A stretch of 52,757 nucleotides of DNA, from the sequence record OR911937.1, one strand, 5' to 3'. Positions 39,353 through 47,178 of this stretch are shown piece after piece; position 1 is the first letter of the stretch, and every line of letters starts with the position of its first letter. Below the pieces are notes generated by a model, which saw only the letters and a program-made list of their open reading frames with translations, had not been told where the DNA came from and did not search any database. Position numbers and translations under genes: made by a program. The stretch is from Escherichia phage vB_EcoM_SD350.

Positions 39353-39376
39353 TGTATCTCTCCTCTAAAAGATAAC

Positions 39377-39407
39377 TTATTATACCACATCACTCTCTAG
39401 TGGTAAA
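39377..39407 (-). promoter_or_regulatory. leftward promoter with CCAC/GTGG inverted repeat and extended -10
   Basis: Minus strand reads TTTACCAC-N-GTGGTATAAT (TTTACC-N17-TATAAT); related copies at 42505-42533, 45745-45770, 48865-48897. Confidence 0.45.
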
Positions 39408-39432
39408 GCACTTTTTACGCTTCTGGTAAAAA

Positions 39433-39462
39433 TAAAAAGGACCAGCGTTAACTGGTCCTTTT
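39433..39462. terminator. bidirectional intrinsic terminator
   Basis: AAAAGGACCAG-cgttaa-CTGGTCCTTTT: perfect 7-bp GC-rich stem flanked by A and T runs. Confidence 0.65.
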
Positions 39463-40029
39463 GGCAGGGTGGCGTAAGGAGATACAAGGCATCGTAACTA
39501 TGCAACCAGGCAGCGCATATGAGATTGGCCAAAAGACTTACCATTTTAATCCCCGCGACGAGACGAAAGGAGGTGTTATCGAGTAGCCAATCACATATGC
39601 GTTACTTGCTGTGTGCTCTCACCGCGGAAAGTATAGAGCGTTGCACTTATCACACCGATGGAGTGGCAAAAGCACACAGCAAGTACAACCTTAGTTGTGG
39701 TGTCTTAGCACCTGAGTTATTGTGGATAACCTGCACCCGACGGGTGTCAAAAAAGATACGCCAAAACACCACAACTAAAATTGTGACCGCCGTCTACACC
39801 AGGCGCCTGGGGTCAAGGTAGCGAGCCAATACCCTTTTCAGCGTCGGAGGAATCGAACCTCACACATCACGGCTTTTACCAAATCTCGGTCAGCGAGCAG
39901 AATTGAACTGCATTCACTGGACACCCTCACTGTTTCAACACACCAGGCTTAATTGATTGTTGATAAGAAGAGAGATGTAAGGATGTCCATTGAATGCACC
40001 TCCGTAGAGGTGCGTTCAGATCAGCGCTA
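39463..40029. other. noncoding island inside the replication operon; candidate structured RNA or origin
   Basis: ~570 bp without a credible ORF; perfect 15-bp inverted repeat (39602-39616 / 39670-39684, 53-nt spacer); 12-bp palindrome CCAGGCGCCTGG (39800-39811); two T-arm-like stem-loops (~39846-39862, ~39896-39912). Confidence 0.4.
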
Positions 40030-40497
40030 TTATTCAGCAACTTCTTCGTTGTCGCCTTCGATCGCGCCAGCCAGTTTAGCAGCTTCAGCTTTAGCAGCTT
40101 CTGCTTTCTGGCGAGCTTTTTCAGCTTTCTCTTCAGCTTTGCGAATCTGCTCAGCAGCTTTCGCTTCGGCTTTTTCAGCTTTGATGCGAGCACGCTCTTC
40201 AGCTTTACGCTGTTTTTCAGCGGCTTTAGCAGCATCGCGTTCTGCTTTAGCGGTATCAACACGCTTAGCCAGAACTTTACCAGTGGCTTTACGCCAGTAG
40301 GTCAGCTGGGAAGAAACAGTACCACGGGACATTTCGGTAGTGGCAACAACTTCGTCCATAACGTCAGAGCTGGACTTGCCTTCTTCATGGGCTTTATCAG
40401 CCAGGTCCCATACATAACGTGCACCAGTACCAGCTGCCGGATACAGTACGCCGTTAACTTCTTCTTTACCAGTTACAAAAGTCAGTTTCTCGCTCAT
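40030..40497 (-). CDS. protein with Lys/Ala/Glu-rich low-complexity C-terminal tail
   Basis: Start set at MSEKL (GAGGA upstream); C-terminal ~70 aa is AKAERDAAKAAEKQRKAEERARIKAEKAEAKAAEQIRKAEEKAEKARQKAEAAKAEAAK. Confidence 0.5.
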   Translation of the reverse strand: MSEKLTFVTGKEEVNGVLYPAAGTGARYVWDLADKAHEEGKSSSDVMDEVVATTEMSRGTVSSQLTYWRKATGKVLAKRVDTAKAERDAAKAAEKQRKAEERARIKAEKAEAKAAEQIRKAEEKAEKARQKAEAAKAEAAKLAGAIEGDNEEVAE

Positions 40498-40603
40498 AAT
40501 TTTTTCCTCGTCTACAGGGCTTAATGTTTGTTCGTTACGTGAGTTAATATACGTCATTTAAAAGAGTGTGTAAACACCTTTTTTAAACTTTTTTCATTAG
40601 TGT

Positions 40604-40825
40604 CTAGAAAGGCACATCATAGTCAAAAAGTTTACATCCGGAAGACAGGACTGCCGGCGGTGGTGTTTTGCCTCCGGATAACAGGCAACCTCCTGCCTGA
40701 AAACTACGGCAGTTCGCACAGCTCATATCCTGCAAGTATATAATAAGCTGTCGGCGAACATGCCGGGGTAAAGCTTTAGCCTGGGTTGCTACCCGTTCAA
40801 ATAGTTCTCTGTCATCGAGCGCCAT
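40604..40825 (-). CDS. small Cys-containing hypothetical protein
   Basis: 73-aa ORF with CANC...C...C; overlaps the helicase 3' end by 14 nt. Confidence 0.4.
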   Translation of the reverse strand: MALDDRELFERVATQAKALPRHVRRQLIIYLQDMSCANCRSFQAGGCLLSGGKTPPPAVLSSGCKLFDYDVPF

Positions 40826-42482
40826 AACCGTTTCCCCAGTCGTAGTTCATGATTTGTGGGTAGGGTCGTTTAATCCATACCTTGATGCGCTTAGGAATAG
40901 CCAGCTCACCCTTACGGCGAATAAACTCATCGCATGTTTCAGGCGGTTCTGTTCCTGCAGCATTGCGCCACCAGGCATCTGCCATTTGCTTAGCATTGCC
41001 ATGGGCCTCTATATTTACCCATGTTGTATACACTTCCAGGTTTGAGTAGTACACAACCTTTATACTGTCTGGCCGTCCCTGCTTCTGGAATAAAGAATAG
41101 TTTACCAGCGTAACATCTTTATCCACAACACGAAGCTGACCGTTAGTCATTACCTCTTCTTCTGATGAAGTGAAGGCAATGGCAGGTCCGTTAACTGTAA
41201 ACTCAAATTCATGTCCGCACATCGGATATACACCATTCTCGTCTGGCGTACTTCCTTTAGCCGGATGCTTACACGTACGTGCGGCATAGCCACTTACCTG
41301 GTGACAGATAGGGCACTCTTTACCGCCAGGTGTTTTCTCTGACCGTTTCTTTTTCTTCTTACCAAGACGTGGCGGAACAGCCGGGTCGTCAATAGGCCCA
41401 AGGTCAATGGTGTTAGATGTGAAGTCCATAACAAGACAGTCATGCTTACCAGGCGCTGTACGTAATCCTCGACCGAGTATCTGCACCCACAAAGCAACAG
41501 ACGTGGACGGGCGCAAGATGCCGAGCATATCAATCTCAGGATAGTCAAATCCTGTCGTCAATACGTTTACGTTTACACAGACTCGTGCTCGTCCGCTTGT
41601 AAACTCTTCCAGTGTGGCTTCACGTTCTTTCTTCGTAAGACCGCCATGCACAACTACAGTCTGCCACCCTCGCAGATTAAATTCGTCTGCTATGTTGTGG
41701 GCGTGCTCAACACTTGTGGCAAATACAAGAACGTGGTTCCTGTCTTTACCGTAGTGCATCATCTCACGAATAGCCGCGACTGTTATACTATGCTGGTTGG
41801 CTACCTTCTCAAGCTCTGACGGGATGTAGTCACCCATCCTTTCGCCAACATTACTAGTGTCAATCTTGGTTAACACTTTCTTGTTGACCAGGCGTGACAG
41901 GAAGCCTTCATTTACCAGTCGGGTAAATGCGTCAGGTGTTGTAAGGTCATAACAGATGTCGGTAAATATACCACAGTCCAGCAAGTGACCACCTGCCAGG
42001 CGATACGGAGTTGCCGTAAGTCCTGTTACCTTTACCTTAGGATTAAGCTCTTTGAAGTGAGCAATAACCTTACGGTATGTTGTTTCAGACTTCTCAGGAA
42101 CAAGATGGGCTTCGTCAATGAATATAAGATTGAACTTGCCAGCTTCTTCCAGGTTCTTAATAATTGACTGTACCGACGCTACAACGATACGACCTGAAAA
42201 GTCTTTGTGTCCTGCTCCTGAAGAGTAGATAGATACTGGGGCTTGTGGCCAGTGGCGTACAATCGCTTTGGCGTCTTGTTCTACCAGCTCCTTGACGTGT
42301 GTCAATATAAGAATGCGCTGACGGGGATAGCTGGTAAGAATATCCTTCATCAGCATACCAAGCACAGGTGATTTACCTGAACCTGTCGGCATGACAATAA
42401 GTGGATTACCACTATAAGAATTGAAGTACGACCACCAGGCTGTGACCGCTTCAGTTTGGTACCAGCGAGCTTCAAAAGCCAT
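40812..42482 (-). CDS. SF2 (DEAH-type) DNA helicase with C-terminal zinc ribbon
   Basis: 556 aa; Walker A MPTGSGKS, Walker B FIDEAH, C-terminal CPICH...CKHP...MCGHE. Confidence 0.7.
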   Translation of the reverse strand: MAFEARWYQTEAVTAWWSYFNSYSGNPLIVMPTGSGKSPVLGMLMKDILTSYPRQRILILTHVKELVEQDAKAIVRHWPQAPVSIYSSGAGHKDFSGRIVVASVQSIIKNLEEAGKFNLIFIDEAHLVPEKSETTYRKVIAHFKELNPKVKVTGLTATPYRLAGGHLLDCGIFTDICYDLTTPDAFTRLVNEGFLSRLVNKKVLTKIDTSNVGERMGDYIPSELEKVANQHSITVAAIREMMHYGKDRNHVLVFATSVEHAHNIADEFNLRGWQTVVVHGGLTKKEREATLEEFTSGRARVCVNVNVLTTGFDYPEIDMLGILRPSTSVALWVQILGRGLRTAPGKHDCLVMDFTSNTIDLGPIDDPAVPPRLGKKKKKRSEKTPGGKECPICHQVSGYAARTCKHPAKGSTPDENGVYPMCGHEFEFTVNGPAIAFTSSEEEVMTNGQLRVVDKDVTLVNYSLFQKQGRPDSIKVVYYSNLEVYTTWVNIEAHGNAKQMADAWWRNAAGTEPPETCDEFIRRKGELAIPKRIKVWIKRPYPQIMNYDWGNGYGAR

Positions 42483-42540: not shown

Positions 42541-43419
42541 TTATTTTAAGGAAAGTTTAACGGGCTTCTCATCCTGCGGGAAGACATCAGCAGGGCGATA
42601 ATCATCACAAGCTGCTAATTGCTCTTCGAGTGTTTCGAGTTCTTTCTGGTGCTTGTTGCAATACCACACTTTGCCCTGAAGCGGTTTACTGTAATGGCAG
42701 GTTCTGCAGTTCCTGTCTGGCATTGCTCCTTTGTGGCACAGGTGATGGTATTCGCACATCCCTGGTTTGCACTCCCACCAAATAGGCGATTCAGAAATCT
42801 TCGGCATATCCAAACCAGATTCCGCATATACAACAGCCTCCGCTTTACTCAGTTGTATGTCGCTTTCCAGTAAGTCAATCTCGACCACCTCAAAATACAT
42901 CTCGTCGGTGTTCTTATTGATTGCGATGTACACAGCTTGATTCAGCTTAAGCTTCCGCATGTATACCTGCATCTGGGCATAGTGTACCGGCTTACTTGCT
43001 TTAACAGACTTGAGCTTGACTAACTCTTTAAACGACTTATCGCCATGCGTCTTGAATTCAGCAAGTGCCCATACGCCTTTGTATTTAATTACACAGTCAC
43101 AAGACCCAGAGAAGATGCCATTGAATTCGTGTATGCGCCACTGCTTACCAGTCTTGGGATTGACGTCCAGCACTTCGTCACATACGGAACGAAGCCACTT
43201 TACAATTCTGCTTTCTTCAAGGTTACCACGTTCAAACAGACGAAGTTGCTTAGCTGTAAACTTCTCCTTGAACGACCAGTGCAGAACGTGCCAAAGATAG
43301 CGATAGCAGTTGTGTCCTATCTGTGATGCTCCAAGATGCCCGCGTCGTTCTTCTCTTTCGTGGGCTTCAACTATCTTGATGTCAATACGTTTCTGCAGGT
43401 CGTCAAACGGACTTGGCAT
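42541..43419 (-). CDS. PD-(D/E)xK exonuclease, RecB/Cas4-like with Cys cluster
   Basis: EFK and QMQVY nuclease motifs plus C-terminal Cys cluster (CKPGMC, C, C..C); start set at MPSPFDD (GAGGAG upstream), not the track start 43536. Confidence 0.55.
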   Translation of the reverse strand: MPSPFDDLQKRIDIKIVEAHEREERRGHLGASQIGHNCYRYLWHVLHWSFKEKFTAKQLRLFERGNLEESRIVKWLRSVCDEVLDVNPKTGKQWRIHEFNGIFSGSCDCVIKYKGVWALAEFKTHGDKSFKELVKLKSVKASKPVHYAQMQVYMRKLKLNQAVYIAINKNTDEMYFEVVEIDLLESDIQLSKAEAVVYAESGLDMPKISESPIWWECKPGMCEYHHLCHKGAMPDRNCRTCHYSKPLQGKVWYCNKHQKELETLEEQLAACDDYRPADVFPQDEKPVKLSLK

Positions 43420-43888
43420 TGTTAAACTCCTCAACGCTGAATTCATCGTACACAATATTATGAGCCCACAAGTGAGCGACGGCATTTGCCATGCTGTCCT
43501 TCCATTTGGATTGAGAAGCGGTATGTGCCAATGCAACTACACGTACCAGGTTAAGGTTGGCTATCAGCATGTCAGCACAATGTTCGCACGGCGGGTAGGT
43601 TATGTAGATGGTAACCGGGCCTAAAGAAGGAGTGTCTAACTCACTCCTTATGTTAGCTAAGGTGTTTATCTCGCTATGAATAGTTAGAGCGTTCTTAAGG
43701 CTATTAGGCACTATTCTTATAGAGTCTAGCTGCGTAGGTAGACCGTTATATCCAGTGGAAATGATACGCTTGTTCTGGTCCACAAGAACGCTACCGACTT
43801 GACGTTTAGGGTCCTTCGACCAGCTCGCAACTTCACAAGCTATGCGCATAAACCGCCTATCCCACTTGTCCATCTTCTTCTTTTGCAT
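43403..43888 (-). CDS. dCMP deaminase-family zinc deaminase
   Basis: 161 aa; HSE and PCEHC zinc-binding motifs of the cytidine/dCMP deaminase fold. Confidence 0.65.
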   Translation of the reverse strand: MQKKKMDKWDRRFMRIACEVASWSKDPKRQVGSVLVDQNKRIISTGYNGLPTQLDSIRIVPNSLKNALTIHSEINTLANIRSELDTPSLGPVTIYITYPPCEHCADMLIANLNLVRVVALAHTASQSKWKDSMANAVAHLWAHNIVYDEFSVEEFNNAKSV

Positions 43889-43949: not shown

Positions 43950-44495
43950 TTATTCTTCCCAAGGAGCTGCTGCACCGTCGTCAGCACCAGGTGCCGTTGC
44001 AGTAGCACTCGCCTTCGTTGAAGTACCCGCACCTGCACCTACTTTCTTCGTCGTCGATGCAGTTGCTTGAGAATGACCACCTACTGCAGTAGTTGCTTCA
44101 GTTGACGCTTTGTATTCGCGAATATCGTTCTGCGGATCGTATTCACCGGTCTTGTCGATACGAACACCAACTTTACCAGCTACAATACGGTTTTCCAGTA
44201 AGTCGGTAGAAGTCAGCTCAACAATACCCAGCGCACGACACAACGCAGACAGTTTGCGATGACCGATTTCAACAGCTTGCGCATTAGGGTTGGAGTAGGT
44301 AATCATGTCAAATACAACACGGTTAGCGAACTCACCTTCCTGCACTTTCAGACGCAGGGACAGGTAAGAACCAGTGCCTGCTTTAGTCGGCTTCAGCTCA
44401 ACCTCTTCAATCATGAAGTTGTACCAGCCTTTCGGGATCGGGTCAAAAGACTGTTGCGGTTCGACGGTAGAGCTGTTGAAGTTTAATTCAGCCAT
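43950..44495 (-). CDS. hypothetical protein, possible ssDNA-binding partner of the ATPase
   Basis: 181 aa, beta-rich N-terminal domain plus Ala/Thr/Gly-rich acidic tail ending PWEE; family guess (DUF669-like) from memory. Confidence 0.4.
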   Translation of the reverse strand: MAELNFNSSTVEPQQSFDPIPKGWYNFMIEEVELKPTKAGTGSYLSLRLKVQEGEFANRVVFDMITYSNPNAQAVEIGHRKLSALCRALGIVELTSTDLLENRIVAGKVGVRIDKTGEYDPQNDIREYKASTEATTAVGGHSQATASTTKKVGAGAGTSTKASATATAPGADDGAAAPWEE

Positions 44496-46272: not shown

Positions 46273-47178
46273 TTACAGCAGTTCTGCTTTCAGCGCAGCG
46301 ATACCATCGAGCAATGCTTTGATGTCCGGGTTAGATGCCGCCAGGTCAGCAACAACTGTCTGACGACGACGTTCCAGTTCTTTCTCAACTTCCAGGTCGA
46401 GGCGTGCTGACGCTTCACGCAGTAAGTCTTCAACCTGCTGACGACGCTGATACTTGTTAAAGTCAGGCACATCAACCAGCCATTTGAGAGTTGCAGTGTT
46501 GTAGCCAGAAGTGTTTGCTGCACTTACAGACACAACATCAACGAGCTTGGTACCGTTCAGCTCCGGATAGTTAACATTGCGAACGTCAACAACCGCTTTG
46601 TCACCTACACTTACTTTGCCGATGTACTTGTAAGTGTACACACGACCATTCGGTTCAAACTTAACACCAACAAACTTCAGTTTGTCGTCTGCAATAACCT
46701 CTTCCTCAACTTTGAAGTTGATTGCAGTGTTCTTGACAGGTGCAGCCGCTTTGAGCTTAGCGACCATGTACTGTTCTGAATGAGACGGACGGCACAGACG
46801 GAAGACGTCCTCATTGTAGGTCAGCCAGTTACCGGTCTCATCCACGCATGCAATCTGATTAGTGCCATCCAGTGAACGAACACCCGGGCGATTCTTCTCA
46901 ACACGATACAGCTTACCTTCTTTCAGGTTAGCGTAAGAACGGCGGGCGATACCCCAGTTGTGTTTTTCAGATTCGTACTTAGCGAAACGATCAACGCTGA
47001 AGTTCTGCTTCAGACCACGGTCGTCGATTACCCATAAGTTATCGTAAGCCCCGCCGAAAGAACCTAGGTTGGCATACACTTTGCCCTGCGTCAACAGGGA
47101 AGTGTTTCCCTCGTCAACACAGATAACAAAACCCAGAGCTTCGTGTGCTTTACCGCTGCGGTCAAATACTGTAGTCAT
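46273..47178 (-). CDS. hypothetical protein (301 aa)
   Basis: Long ORF, beta-rich internal repeats, coiled-coil C-terminus; no motif assigned. Confidence 0.55.
   Translation of the reverse strand: MTTVFDRSGKAHEALGFVICVDEGNTSLLTQGKVYANLGSFGGAYDNLWVIDDRGLKQNFSVDRFAKYESEKHNWGIARRSYANLKEGKLYRVEKNRPGVRSLDGTNQIACVDETGNWLTYNEDVFRLCRPSHSEQYMVAKLKAAAPVKNTAINFKVEEEVIADDKLKFVGVKFEPNGRVYTYKYIGKVSVGDKAVVDVRNVNYPELNGTKLVDVVSVSAANTSGYNTATLKWLVDVPDFNKYQRRQQVEDLLREASARLDLEVEKELERRRQTVVADLAASNPDIKALLDGIAALKAELL

What the first reader, a model, noticed from the sequence alone, without database searches (positions are those of the whole stretch)
40030..40497. Protein with a histone-H1-like Lys/Ala/Glu low-complexity tail
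The C-terminal ~70 residues are an almost pure K/A/E/R repeat (KAEEKAEKARQKAEAAKAEAAK), encoded by visibly repetitive DNA, attached to a ~90-aa N-terminal domain. Such tails occur in DNA-compacting or nucleoid-associated proteins. Its position beside the noncoding island raises the possibility of a DNA-binding or host-nucleoid-targeting role.
Basis: inference. Interest (0 to 1): 0.4.

Follow-up and report, generated by a model that had tools for sequence, protein, structure and literature searches.

The report
Abundant phage protein with charged helical tail
This is a real, probably very highly expressed phage protein of unknown function that joins a small helix-turn-helix-like domain, common in phages but unnamed, to one long charged alpha-helix; the tail is not histone-H1-like, and DNA binding is plausible but unproven.

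Summary
A 155-aa CDS on the minus strand (40497..40030) ends in a 68-residue stretch that is 84% K/A/E/R, the most extreme such stretch in the genome.

The window is a whole Rosemountvirus (BP63-like) genome. The gene is the BP63_59 / fHy-Eco03 gp60 orthologue, filed as PHROG 28664 with unknown function.

The "H1-like" label does not fit:
- The tail has no proline and 21% acidic residues.
- Its net charge is only +7, and the whole protein has pI 6.7.
- AlphaFold2 models it as one 66-residue amphipathic helix, followed by an acidic tip.

The N-terminal 75 residues fold as a beta-hairpin plus three helices, which looks helix-turn-helix-like.
- The domain belongs to a large unnamed family: 1941 clusters at 50% identity, seven PHROGs of unknown function, and no Pfam, NCBIfam or PDB relative.
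- It is basic in most members (median +4) and occurs in 1-3 copies, usually beside K/A/E-rich segments.
- It also occurs inside MuF/ADP-ribosyltransferase polyvalent head proteins.

The gene has its own sigma70-like promoter and the highest host-optimal codon use in the genome. In six distant phages sampled it sits downstream of the SF2 helicase in the replication module.

My best reading is an abundant nucleic-acid-binding accessory protein of the replication module. That is inferred, not shown. The neighbouring "island" is a co-transcribed, variable RNA slot that holds two tRNA genes in a relative.

The parts
40546..40574 (-). Sigma70-like promoter of the gene (TTTACA, 17 nt, TATATT), preceded by an A-rich tract
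   Evidence: Consensus scan, 10 of 12 matches. BP63 annotates a promoter at the equivalent place. The sequence was read.
40505..40509 (-). Shine-Dalgarno GAGGA, 7 nt before the ATG
   Evidence: Read directly from the sequence.
40030..40497 (-). CDS of 155 aa plus stop codon; orthologue of BP63_59, fHy-Eco03 gp60 and S144 ORF48; PHROG 28664
   Evidence: Peptides were detected for gp60. Fraction of host-optimal codons (Fop) is 0.847, the highest in the genome.
40273..40497 (-). N-terminal domain, residues 1-75: beta-hairpin 11-20 and helices 25-39, 43-53 and 58-72, HTH-like. Invariant or near-invariant residues are N15, P20, W30, D34, Q64, W68, R69 and G73.
   Evidence: AF2 models with pLDDT 84 and 87.5, pTM 0.74 for the domain alone. 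Alignments. Family search found 1941 representatives.
40057..40254 (-). Single long predicted alpha-helix, residues 82-147. It contains the K/A/E/R-rich stretch (residues 76-143 = 40069-40272) and has separate Ala, basic and acidic faces.
   Evidence: AF2 gives H82-147 with block pLDDT 89-93. Composition. Helical moments: basic p=0.0035, Ala p=0.007, acidic p=0.02. The basic stripe recurs in nearly all of 20 orthologues.
40033..40068 (-). Acidic C-terminal tip, residues 144-155 (AGAIEGDNEEVAE), net -5
   Evidence: The last 12 residues are acidic in all 20 orthologues, -1 to -8. The last 10 residues have a median net charge of -2 across the wider family.
39996..40013 (-). Conserved hairpin just after the stop codon (GCACCUC-UACG-GAGGUGC) with no U-tract
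   Evidence: It is conserved in ZCSE2 and fHy-Eco03 with a UUCG loop. SOI901 keeps it with a compensatory A-U to C-G change.
39353..40029 (-). Noncoding stretch downstream of the gene on the same strand. It is strongly structured as RNA, mosaic among relatives, and holds two tRNA genes in SOI901.
   Evidence: Fold z = -9.0 on the minus strand and -5.2 on the plus strand. Four long inverted repeats. No tRNA and no Rfam family. SOI901 has tRNA-Pro and tRNA-Gln in this slot. Alignment.
39435..39462 (-). Intrinsic terminator (12-bp stem plus U-run) that ends the transcription unit
   Evidence: It is conserved, with compensatory changes, in SOI901 and fHy-Eco03.
40604..40825 (-). Upstream neighbour: a 73-aa protein with four conserved Cys and a conserved C-terminal [IV]PF. 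It lies just after the helicase in four distant contigs sampled (directly before the family gene only in L006).
40812..42482 (-). SF2 helicase (ResIII / DEAD / Helicase_C), the conserved upstream anchor of the synteny
   Evidence: Synteny.

Best explanation
The gene encodes a real and probably very abundant early or middle protein of the phage replication-gene cluster. It has three parts.

1. A 75-residue beta-hairpin plus three-helix, HTH-like domain. It belongs to a large phage-specific family that has no name and no solved relative.
2. One rod-like amphipathic alpha-helix of about 66 residues (about 10 nm), built from K/A/E/R. It has an alanine face, a basic face and an acidic face.
3. A short acidic tip.

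The most likely mechanism, which is inferred, is this. The domain contacts nucleic acid, most likely phage DNA, through its third helix (TVSSQLTYWRK). The long helix acts as a rigid spacer and/or a weak self-association and electrostatic element. Its sequence drifts quickly, but its composition, helical character and basic stripe are kept. The acidic tip could dock onto a basic partner or fold back on the basic surface, as acidic tails do in SSB, T7 gp2.5 and HMGB proteins. On this view the protein is a stoichiometric DNA-associated accessory factor, architectural or replisome-linked, rather than a low-copy site-specific switch.

Shown here: the gene, its composition, the fold prediction, the size of the family, the synteny, the codon bias and the existence of the protein. 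Inferred: nucleic-acid binding, the role of the helix and tip, and the biological role.
For: The gene is real and expressed.
- It is conserved in 62 phage records.
- Six peptides covering 45% were found for the fHy-Eco03 orthologue gp60 (PMC8145870 Table S6).

High expression is likely.
- It has its own sigma70-like promoter with an A-rich upstream tract and a strong Shine-Dalgarno sequence.
- Fop is 0.847, the highest of all genes. The major capsid protein scores 0.836, the DUF669 protein 0.733, and the median is 0.526. The N-domain alone scores 0.829, so the tail is not driving the value.

Fold.
- AF2 pLDDT is 84 for the full protein and 87.5 for the domain alone (pTM 0.74), giving a hairpin, three helices and one helix spanning residues 82-147.
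- All Foldseek PDB matches are non-significant (best E 0.18-0.66). Most of them are HTH or winged-HTH DNA-binding domains: MecI/BlaI, Fur, OmpR-type, DeoR, LysR, Rok, homeodomains and Mu transposase I-beta.

Family.
- The profile finds 1941 representatives at E<=1e-3 and 628 at E<=1e-10, with 1-3 tandem copies per protein.
- The domain's net charge has a median of +4 over 311 domains.
- 122 of 186 proteins carry a flank of at least 30 aa that is at least 50% K/A/E.
- Sporadic Pfam hits fall on HTH families: HNH_repeat in 2 of 145 members (one overlaps a domain copy at 27.1 bits against a gathering cut-off of 26), and KfrA_N, E2F_TDP and Sigma70_r3 in 1 of 145 each.

Helix.
- The basic, acidic and Ala faces are segregated.
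- The basic stripe is significant in nearly all of 20 orthologues (p<=0.01 in 18), although tail identity averages 39% against 69% for the domain.

Context.
- In every locus sampled the gene lies downstream of the SF2 helicase, within a module that includes AAA_24, DUF669 and a nuclease. In the distant phages it sits just upstream of nucleotide or DNA-modification genes and DNA polymerase A.
- In the metagenomic contigs it stands alone, with gaps of about 60-120 nt on both sides.
- The family is essentially phage-only: 153 phage records against 1 of 72,556 plasmids.
Against: - No structural match is significant, and the top-ranked hits are RiPP leader-peptide-binding RRE domains (TbiB1), not DNA binders.
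- There is no Pfam, NCBIfam or PDB sequence relative.
- In this phage the domain itself is acidic (net -2, pI 5.3). That is the extreme low end of the family. Two basic positions conserved elsewhere, the R of 'RP' and the R after 'P..', are Y and D here.
- The whole protein is neutral.
- I found no repeated operator-like motif nearby.
- Codon bias is only a proxy for abundance.
- No binding assay exists for any family member that I could find.
Confidence: 0.42

Rival explanations
1. It is a site-specific transcription regulator, an activator or repressor of middle or late genes. The HTH domain reads an operator and the long helix dimerises, as in KfrA-, MerR- or KorA-type regulators. These phages use host RNA polymerase and need timing factors.
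For: - The fold is HTH-like.
- Some relatives are annotated 'transcriptional activator' (HD01, R7M, BA3, CAjan).
- One family member hits KfrA_N and one hits Sigma70_r3.
- The Ala-rich face could pack as a coiled coil, and S144 ORF48 is annotated 'coils'.
Against: - The 'activator' labels trace to weak 'FtrA domain' annotation, not to experiments. The PHROGs are all 'unknown function'.
- Capsid-level codon bias is unusual for a specific regulator.
- The tail has almost no large hydrophobic residues to form a heptad seam: 6 of 66, with a heptad moment p=0.21.
- Tandem 1-3-copy architectures and fusions to injected polyvalent proteins fit general binding better than operator reading.
- No repeated motif was found.
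Confidence: 0.2
2. It is a protein-protein adaptor rather than a nucleic-acid binder. The hairpin plus three-helix domain binds a peptide or protein, as PqqD/RRE domains do. The partner could be a replisome component such as the neighbouring helicase, the 73-aa Cys4 protein or the DUF669 protein, or it could be a host factor. The charged helix would be a rigid spacer.
For: - The best-ranked fold hits are RRE domains: TbiB1 at E 0.18-0.66 and lasso peptide B1.
- The domain is acidic in this phage.
- The gene is tightly syntenic with the helicase and the small Cys4 protein.
- The domain occurs in polyvalent MuF/ADP-ribosyltransferase effectors, which target host proteins.
Against: - The fold hits are not significant.
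- Most family members have a clearly basic domain, median +4.
- The conserved third helix, T-Q-Y-x-x-W-R-K, looks like a recognition helix.
- Weak Pfam links are all to DNA-binding HTH families.
Confidence: 0.2
3. One reading: a histone-H1-like or nucleoid-associated protein whose basic low-complexity tail itself compacts DNA or targets the host nucleoid.
For: - The tail has net +7 with a continuous basic stripe.
- High expression is predicted.
- One distant family member hits Pfam HC2 through composition.
Against: - The tail has 21% acidic residues, no Pro and pI 9.9, and it ends in an acidic tip. Over residues 76-155 the net charge is +2.
- The whole protein has pI 6.7.
- The tail is predicted as an ordered helix.
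- In orthologues the tail core's net charge ranges from -3 to +5, so positive charge is not conserved.
- From established knowledge, H1, Hc1 and AlgP tails are K/A/P-rich, nearly free of acidic residues and disordered.
Confidence: 0.07
4. It is a virion-internal protein, packaged with the DNA and injected to protect or prime the genome.
For: - fHy-Eco03 gp60 is annotated 'virion associated' from LC-MS/MS.
- The domain occurs in MuF-type head proteins that are packaged.
Against: - The same preparation also contained DNA polymerase, thymidylate synthase, helicase, exonuclease and DHFR, so it was contaminated with cytoplasmic proteins.
- The S144 virion proteome of 32 proteins does not list the orthologue ORF48.
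- The gene sits in the replication cluster, not in the head module.
Confidence: 0.06

Closest known systems
KfrA of IncP plasmids (Pfam KfrA_N plus a long Ala-rich alpha-helical tail)
   Same: The architecture matches: a small N-terminal helix-turn-helix-type domain followed by a long, alanine- and charge-rich alpha-helical rod. One of 145 family members gives a weak KfrA_N hit.
   Different: - This protein does not match KfrA_N even at E<=1.
- The family is phage-borne and almost absent from plasmids, 1 of 72,556 records.
- The tail is much shorter, and no autoregulatory operator is evident.
Pfam PF18780 HNH_repeat (homing-endonuclease-associated repeat, a presumed DNA-binding helical module)
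   Same: Both are small helical modules that occur in tandem copies. In P0059 a copy of the present domain (residues 301-358) overlaps an HNH_repeat hit (318-358) at 27.1 bits against a cut-off of 26.
   Different: Only 2 of 145 members reach this, and the window protein does not. The present domain has an extra N-terminal beta-hairpin with the conserved (Q)NG..P motif.
Histone H1 C-terminal domain and bacterial H1-like proteins (Chlamydia Hc1/Hc2, Pseudomonas AlgP, mycobacterial HupB tail)
   Same: A Lys/Ala-rich low-complexity segment attached to a small folded domain.
   Different: Those tails are K/A/P-rich, have almost no acidic residues, have pI above 10 and are disordered (established knowledge). 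Here there is 0 Pro and 21% D/E, a helix is predicted, an acidic tip follows, and the protein is neutral overall.
Single alpha-helix (ER/K) domains and Baldwin-type (AEAAKA)n peptides / EAAAK rigid linkers
   Same: A long isolated helix is predicted with very few large hydrophobic residues. AEAAK-like units are present (KAEAAKAEAAK). Opposite-charge pairs at i,i+3 are enriched, p=0.017.
   Different: It is 35% Ala and only about 52% charged. Pairs at i,i+4 are not enriched, p=0.33. Whether it is monomeric or dimeric is untested.
TolA domain II / ATP synthase b subunit (compositional look-alikes)
   Same: K/A/E-rich helical rods. Relatives are auto-named 'membrane protein involved in colicin uptake'. 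There is a sub-threshold ATP-synt_B hit, E=0.014 and 15.9 bits against a cut-off of 28.
   Different: There is no membrane anchor and no homology beyond composition. The context is a phage replication module.
Acidic-tailed DNA-binding proteins (bacterial SSB, T7 gp2.5, T4 gp32, HMGB1)
   Same: An abundant replication-module protein that ends in a conserved acidic tip.
   Different: There is no OB fold and no HMG box. The tip lacks the SSB 'IPF' motif, which instead appears on the neighbouring 73-aa protein.

Membership tests
PHROG 28664 (phage protein family, unknown function) | Full-length match to the family profile | tested here: met
   E = 6.4e-99, residues 1-155 against profile positions 1-155 of 155.
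Histone H1-like / bacterial H1-like basic tails | Lys/Ala/Pro-rich tail with almost no acidic residues and very high pI | tested here: not met
   The tail (residues 76-143) has 0 Pro, 21% D+E and pI 9.9. Residues 76-155 have net +2. The whole protein has pI 6.7.
Histone H1-like / bacterial H1-like basic tails | Intrinsically disordered tail | tested here: not met
   AF2 predicts a single helix at residues 82-147 with block pLDDT 89-93. This is a prediction only.
Histone H1-like / bacterial H1-like basic tails | Match to a linker-histone or HC1/HC2 profile | tested here: not met
   No such Pfam hit at E<=1. HC2 is hit by 1 of 145 distant family members only.
KfrA (PF11740 KfrA_N plus helical tail) | KfrA_N DNA-binding domain | tested here: not met
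   No hit at E<=1 for this protein. One of 145 family members hits at E 8.6e-5.
KfrA (PF11740 KfrA_N plus helical tail) | Long Ala-rich alpha-helical tail | tested here: met
   35% Ala and a predicted 66-residue helix.
KfrA (PF11740 KfrA_N plus helical tail) | Plasmid partition or replication-region context | tested here: not met
   The context is a phage replication module. The family consensus hits 1 of 72,556 plasmids against 153 phage records.
Helix-turn-helix / winged-helix DNA-binding domains (superfamily level) | Three-helix core with a tight turn before the third (recognition) helix | tested here: met
   The AF2 domain model has H22-36, H40-50 and H55-69 after a hairpin, pLDDT 87.5. 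There is a Gly-containing turn, 'MSRG', before TVSSQLTYWRK.
Helix-turn-helix / winged-helix DNA-binding domains (superfamily level) | Significant structural or profile similarity to a known HTH family | tested here: inconclusive
Helix-turn-helix / winged-helix DNA-binding domains (superfamily level) | Binds DNA | not testable with these tools
   This needs EMSA, anisotropy or ChIP.
Pfam PF18780 HNH_repeat | Score at or above the gathering cut-off (26 bits) | tested here: not met
   The window protein has no hit. In the wider family, 2 of 145 members hit. P0059 scores 27.1 bits on a stretch that overlaps a copy of the domain.
Single alpha-helix (ER/K) domain | Long isolated helix without a hydrophobic seam | tested here: met
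   Helix at residues 82-147. Only 6 large apolar residues, with a heptad moment p=0.21.
Single alpha-helix (ER/K) domain | Dense i,i+4 E/K salt-bridge pattern and mostly charged composition | tested here: inconclusive
   Pairs at i,i+4 are not enriched (p=0.33); pairs at i,i+3 are (p=0.017). Charged residues are about 52% and Ala 35%.
Virion structural protein | Reproducible, specific presence in purified particles | tested here: inconclusive
   It was detected in fHy-Eco03 particles together with many replication enzymes. It is not listed among the 32 S144 virion proteins.

The most novel reading that the evidence does not exclude
The protein is the founding, testable example of an unnamed phage-wide DNA-binding domain, with about 1,900 clusters at 50% identity and no Pfam entry or solved structure. 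It would act as an abundant phage-encoded 'chromatin' or replisome-accessory protein that coats or organises the phage's own chemically modified DNA. Two observations point this way. Rosemount- and Loughborough-virus DNA resists G/C-site restriction enzymes. In every distant phage sampled the family gene lies just upstream of the 7-deazaguanine DNA-modification genes. The same domain would then have been reused in injected MuF/ADP-ribosyltransferase polyvalent proteins to tether effectors to DNA.
Probability: 0.15. Interest if true: 0.65.

Novelty: new member of a known kind. Interest (0 to 1): 0.33.

Why it matters
If the inference holds, this small gene would give a name and a function to a domain present in thousands of phage proteins. 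Those phages include Queuovirinae, YuA-like Pseudomonas phages, and Vibrio and Rhizobium phages, where the gene is currently "hypothetical" or mislabelled "transcriptional activator" or "TolA-like".

Its capsid-level codon bias and fixed place in the replication module mark it as a major but unstudied component of phage DNA metabolism. The lineages that carry it often modify their DNA.

On its own, though, it is a conserved hypothetical protein with a charged helical tail. That is a common architecture, and nothing here contradicts existing knowledge.

Tried and rejected
- Pfam, NCBIfam and PDB sequence searches with the protein and with two domain profiles gave only compositional or chance hits: ATP-synt_B, adenylate kinase, P2X receptor and archaeal RNAP A''.
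- Foldseek of the domain and of the full model against PDB gave nothing significant.
- Foldseek against BFVD returned only uncharacterised family members.
- I searched for an operator-like repeated motif around the gene and genome-wide, using the conserved downstream promoter region. The full 29-mer is unique, and the 12-mer core occurs at chance frequency.
- I looked for a second copy of the domain in the window and found none.
- I tested whether the noncoding island holds tRNAs or a known RNA family. ARAGORN and Rfam were both negative, with only generic long-hairpin look-alikes.
- I rejected the 175-aa start at 40557, because the promoter -10, the Shine-Dalgarno sequence and the orthologue N-termini all favour 40497.
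- I rejected the plus-strand antisense ORF 39994-40524 as a by-product of GCT/AAA/GAA-rich codons.
- I rejected "structural protein" as an annotation. The fHy-Eco03 particle proteome also contains polymerase, thymidylate synthase and helicase, and the S144 particle proteome lacks the orthologue.
- The polyvalent-protein paper (PMC5512222) does not describe this domain.
Full report
**What the window is.** The region 39400-41000 is 97-99.6% identical to Rosemountvirus genomes such as Escherichia phage vB_EcoM_swi3 and Salmonella phage BP63. At 52.8 kb the window is essentially a whole genome of that genus. In those records the finding's ORF is annotated "hypothetical protein": BP63_59, brunost_37, swi3 QNR52406.

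**Checking the observation.**
- The CDS runs on the minus strand from the ATG at 40497 to the stop codon at 40030-40032 and encodes 155 aa.
- Residues 76-143 are 84% K/A/E/R (A 35%, K 21%, E 18%, R 10%) with no Pro or Gly. The last 12 residues are acidic, net -5.
- This is the most extreme 68-aa window among 124 six-frame ORFs of at least 100 aa. The runner-up scores 0.65 and the median is 0.26.
- The DNA is only mildly repetitive: a 15-nt unit repeated 2.2 times at 40075-40107, plus imperfect copies.
- Some records use a longer 175-aa ORF start. That is unlikely, because the promoter-like -10 hexamer (40551-40546) lies downstream of that ATG, a GAGGA Shine-Dalgarno sequence precedes the 40497 ATG, and the orthologues start at MSEK/MT.
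- The protein exists. The fHy-Eco03 orthologue gp60, 91% identical, gave 6 peptides and 45% coverage in LC-MS/MS (PMC8145870).

**Anatomy.**
- AlphaFold2 with a 27-sequence alignment (mean pLDDT 84) predicts a beta-hairpin (residues 11-20), three helices (25-39, 43-53, 58-72) and then a single uninterrupted helix at 82-147.
- The domain modelled alone gives pLDDT 87.5 and pTM 0.74.
- The long helix is amphipathic in an unusual way. Ala, basic and acidic residues each cluster on their own face at alpha-helical periodicity (p = 0.007, 0.0035 and 0.02 against shuffles). Large hydrophobic residues are too few, 6 of 66, to form a classical heptad seam.
- The whole protein has pI 6.7, the N-domain 5.3 and the tail core 9.9.
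- These numbers, the lack of proline and the confident helix are why I reject the "histone-H1-like" description. Known H1-type tails are K/A/P-rich, nearly free of acidic residues and disordered (established knowledge).
- The tail resembles KfrA- or TolA-type Ala/charge-rich rods, or (AEAAK)n single helices.

**Evolution of the two parts.**
- Across 19 orthologues the N-domain averages 69% identity to the window protein and the tail 39%. The tail also has length changes of 10-24 residues.
- What the tail keeps is its character: K/A/E/R at 61-86%, 0-1 Pro, an acidic last 12 residues in all 20 proteins (-1 to -8), and a statistically significant basic stripe in nearly all of the 20 (p<=0.01 in 18).
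- Net charge of the tail core is not conserved; it ranges from -3 to +5. That argues against simple polycation-type DNA condensation.

**The N-domain is a large, unnamed phage family.**
- A 74-position profile of the domain, searched against 1.84 billion representatives, found 1941 proteins at E<=1e-3 and 628 at E<=1e-10. They range from 94 to 1363 aa and carry one to three tandem copies.
- No member has a Pfam domain on record, and the names are "hypothetical", or "membrane protein involved in colicin uptake" because of composition.
- The domain spans at least seven PHROGs, all of unknown function.
- There is no NCBIfam model and no PDB relative by sequence profile.
- The consensus is QNGVxRPxxGTxTGxVWDxADxLSxxxGxPxxRxxVxxxxxxxGxNxxTxxTQYxxWRKFxG.
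- The domain is basic in most members, with a median net charge of +4 over 311 domains.
- 122 of 186 proteins have a flank of at least 30 aa that is at least 50% K/A/E, on either side or between copies. The charged low-complexity partner is therefore a family trait, not a quirk of this phage.
- The domain also sits inside large polyvalent proteins: MuF plus ADP-ribosyltransferase in P0049 and P0080, and a Cys-rich N-terminal region plus a C-terminal HExxH motif in P0059 and P0061. Such proteins are packaged in heads and delivered to the host (PMC5512222).
- Weak Pfam links all point to HTH-type DNA-binding modules: HNH_repeat in 2 of 145 members (one overlapping a domain copy at 27.1 bits against a cut-off of 26), and KfrA_N, E2F_TDP and Sigma70_r3 in one member each.
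- Foldseek against the PDB found nothing significant (best E 0.18-0.66, TM about 0.45-0.5). The lists are dominated by HTH and winged-HTH DNA-binding domains, but they are headed by RiPP leader-binding RRE domains.
- I therefore call the fold "HTH-like" and treat DNA binding as an inference.
- One caveat applies to this phage. Its copy of the domain is at the acidic extreme of the family (net -2) and lacks two basic positions that are conserved elsewhere.

**Expression and context.**
- A sigma70-like promoter (TTTACA, 17 nt, TATATT) at 40574-40546, preceded by an A-rich tract, lies upstream of the gene. BP63 annotates a promoter at the same place.
- The gene has the highest fraction of E. coli-optimal codons in the genome: 0.847, or 0.829 for the N-domain alone. 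The major capsid protein scores 0.836, the DUF669 protein 0.733, and the median is 0.526. A very abundant protein is the simplest reading.
- The gene lies in the replication cluster. Reading along the minus strand, the order is the DUF669 protein, a 331-aa ORF at 42541-43536 whose fHy-Eco03 counterpart gp63 is annotated "putative exonuclease", the SF2 helicase, a 73-aa Cys4 protein, this gene, and then MazG-like and thymidylate synthase genes and the DNA polymerase.
- The family gene sits in the same replication module in phages whose domain is only 25-35% identical: Acinetobacter phage HD01, Escherichia phage CAjan (Seuratvirus) and five metagenomic contigs. There the order is AAA_24, DUF669, nuclease, helicase, between one and seven short ORFs, the family gene, then QueE/QueC/QueD/FolE and PolA.
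- In the five metagenomic contigs the family gene stands alone, with gaps of about 60-120 nt on each side.
- A family consensus hits 153 phage records and a single plasmid.

**Virion association.** The fHy-Eco03 record calls gp60 a "putative structural protein". The same particle preparation also contained DNA polymerase, primase/helicase, thymidylate synthase, DHFR and exonuclease. The S144 particle proteome does not list the orthologue ORF48. I read the mass spectrometry as proof of expression only.

**The neighbouring island.**
- The 677-nt gap at 39353-40029 lies downstream of the gene on the same strand.
- A conserved hairpin (39996-40013) follows the stop codon. It has a UNCG-type loop, and SOI901 keeps it with a compensatory pair.
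- A strong terminator (39462-39435) closes the unit, just before the next promoter at 39407-39379.
- As RNA the stretch folds far better than shuffles on the minus strand (z = -9.0) and less well on the plus strand (z = -5.2).
- It is mosaic among relatives. In Erwinia phage SOI901 the same slot carries tRNA-Pro and tRNA-Gln.
- In the window neither ARAGORN nor Rfam finds anything. A T-arm-like GGTTCGATTCC remains, read directly from the sequence.
- The island is therefore better explained as a co-transcribed RNA or tRNA slot than as a DNA target of the protein. Distant family members keep the synteny without any island.

**Conclusion.**
- The "H1-like" reading is wrong in detail.
- The general idea of a nucleic-acid-associated protein remains the best available hypothesis, at about 0.4 confidence.
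- The rivals are a specific transcription regulator, a protein-protein adaptor, tail-driven compaction and virion packaging.
- The protein is a conserved hypothetical with a common overall architecture.
- Three things make it mildly interesting: the size and anonymity of the domain family, the extreme codon bias, and the fixed position beside the DNA-modification and replication genes.

Noticed in passing
window 39353-40029 (minus strand): The 677-nt noncoding stretch appears to be co-transcribed downstream of the gene. As RNA it folds with z = -9.0 on the minus strand, and it contains four long hairpins. It has no tRNA or Rfam match but keeps a T-arm-like GGTTCGATTCC near 39850-39865. It is mosaic among relatives, and in Erwinia phage SOI901 (L009 2083-2243) the same slot carries tRNA-Pro(TGG) and tRNA-Gln(TTG). 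It may be a decayed or repurposed tRNA/sRNA slot.
   Followed up: partly
window 40604-40825 (minus strand): A 73-aa ORF lies between the helicase and the gene. A homologue follows the helicase in four distant phage contigs. It has four invariant Cys (CxxC...C...GC) and an invariant C-terminal PF ('D-x-[IV]-P-F'), which resembles the bacterial SSB C-terminal tip. It has no Pfam hit. It could be a zinc-ribbon replisome adaptor.
   Followed up: partly
window 39996-40013 and 39435-39462 (minus strand): Two conserved RNA hairpins bracket the island. One is a UNCG-type tetraloop hairpin right after the stop codon, with no U-tract, so it may serve mRNA stability or processing. The other is a 12-bp intrinsic terminator. 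Both keep pairing through compensatory changes in SOI901 and fHy-Eco03.
   Followed up: partly
window 46273-47178 (minus strand) and 43950-44495 (minus strand): After the finding's gene and the major capsid protein, the genes with the highest host-optimal codon use are a DUF669 protein (Fop 0.733) and a 301-aa protein with no Pfam hit (Fop 0.719). A 355-aa protein at a similar position in fHy-Eco03, Gp70, was among the most abundant proteins in the particle proteome (35 PSMs); I did not confirm it is the orthologue.
   Followed up: no
whole window; related phages fHy-Eco03 and S144: Published restriction digests show that Rosemountvirus and Loughboroughvirus DNA resists enzymes with G/C-containing sites, and the modification is unidentified (PMC8145870, PMC7432712). 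Distant phages that carry the same protein family encode 7-deazaguanine pathway genes immediately downstream of it (L006, L007, L012-L014, L016).
   Followed up: no
window 39994-40524 (plus strand): A 176-aa antisense ORF overlaps the gene. It is Phe/Ser/Ala-rich and is a by-product of the GCT/AAA/GAA-rich sense codons. It is longer than the real CDS and can mislead ORF callers that choose the longest ORF.
   Followed up: yes
P0049, P0080, P0059, P0061 (metagenomic proteins, not in the window): Two copies of the domain, flanked by poly-Pro linkers in P0059 and P0061, are embedded in 665-1363-aa polyvalent proteins. P0049 and P0080 carry MuF and ADP-ribosyltransferase domains; P0059 and P0061 have a C-terminal HExxH motif. 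These architectures are not described for this domain in the polyvalent-protein survey (PMC5512222).
   Followed up: partly
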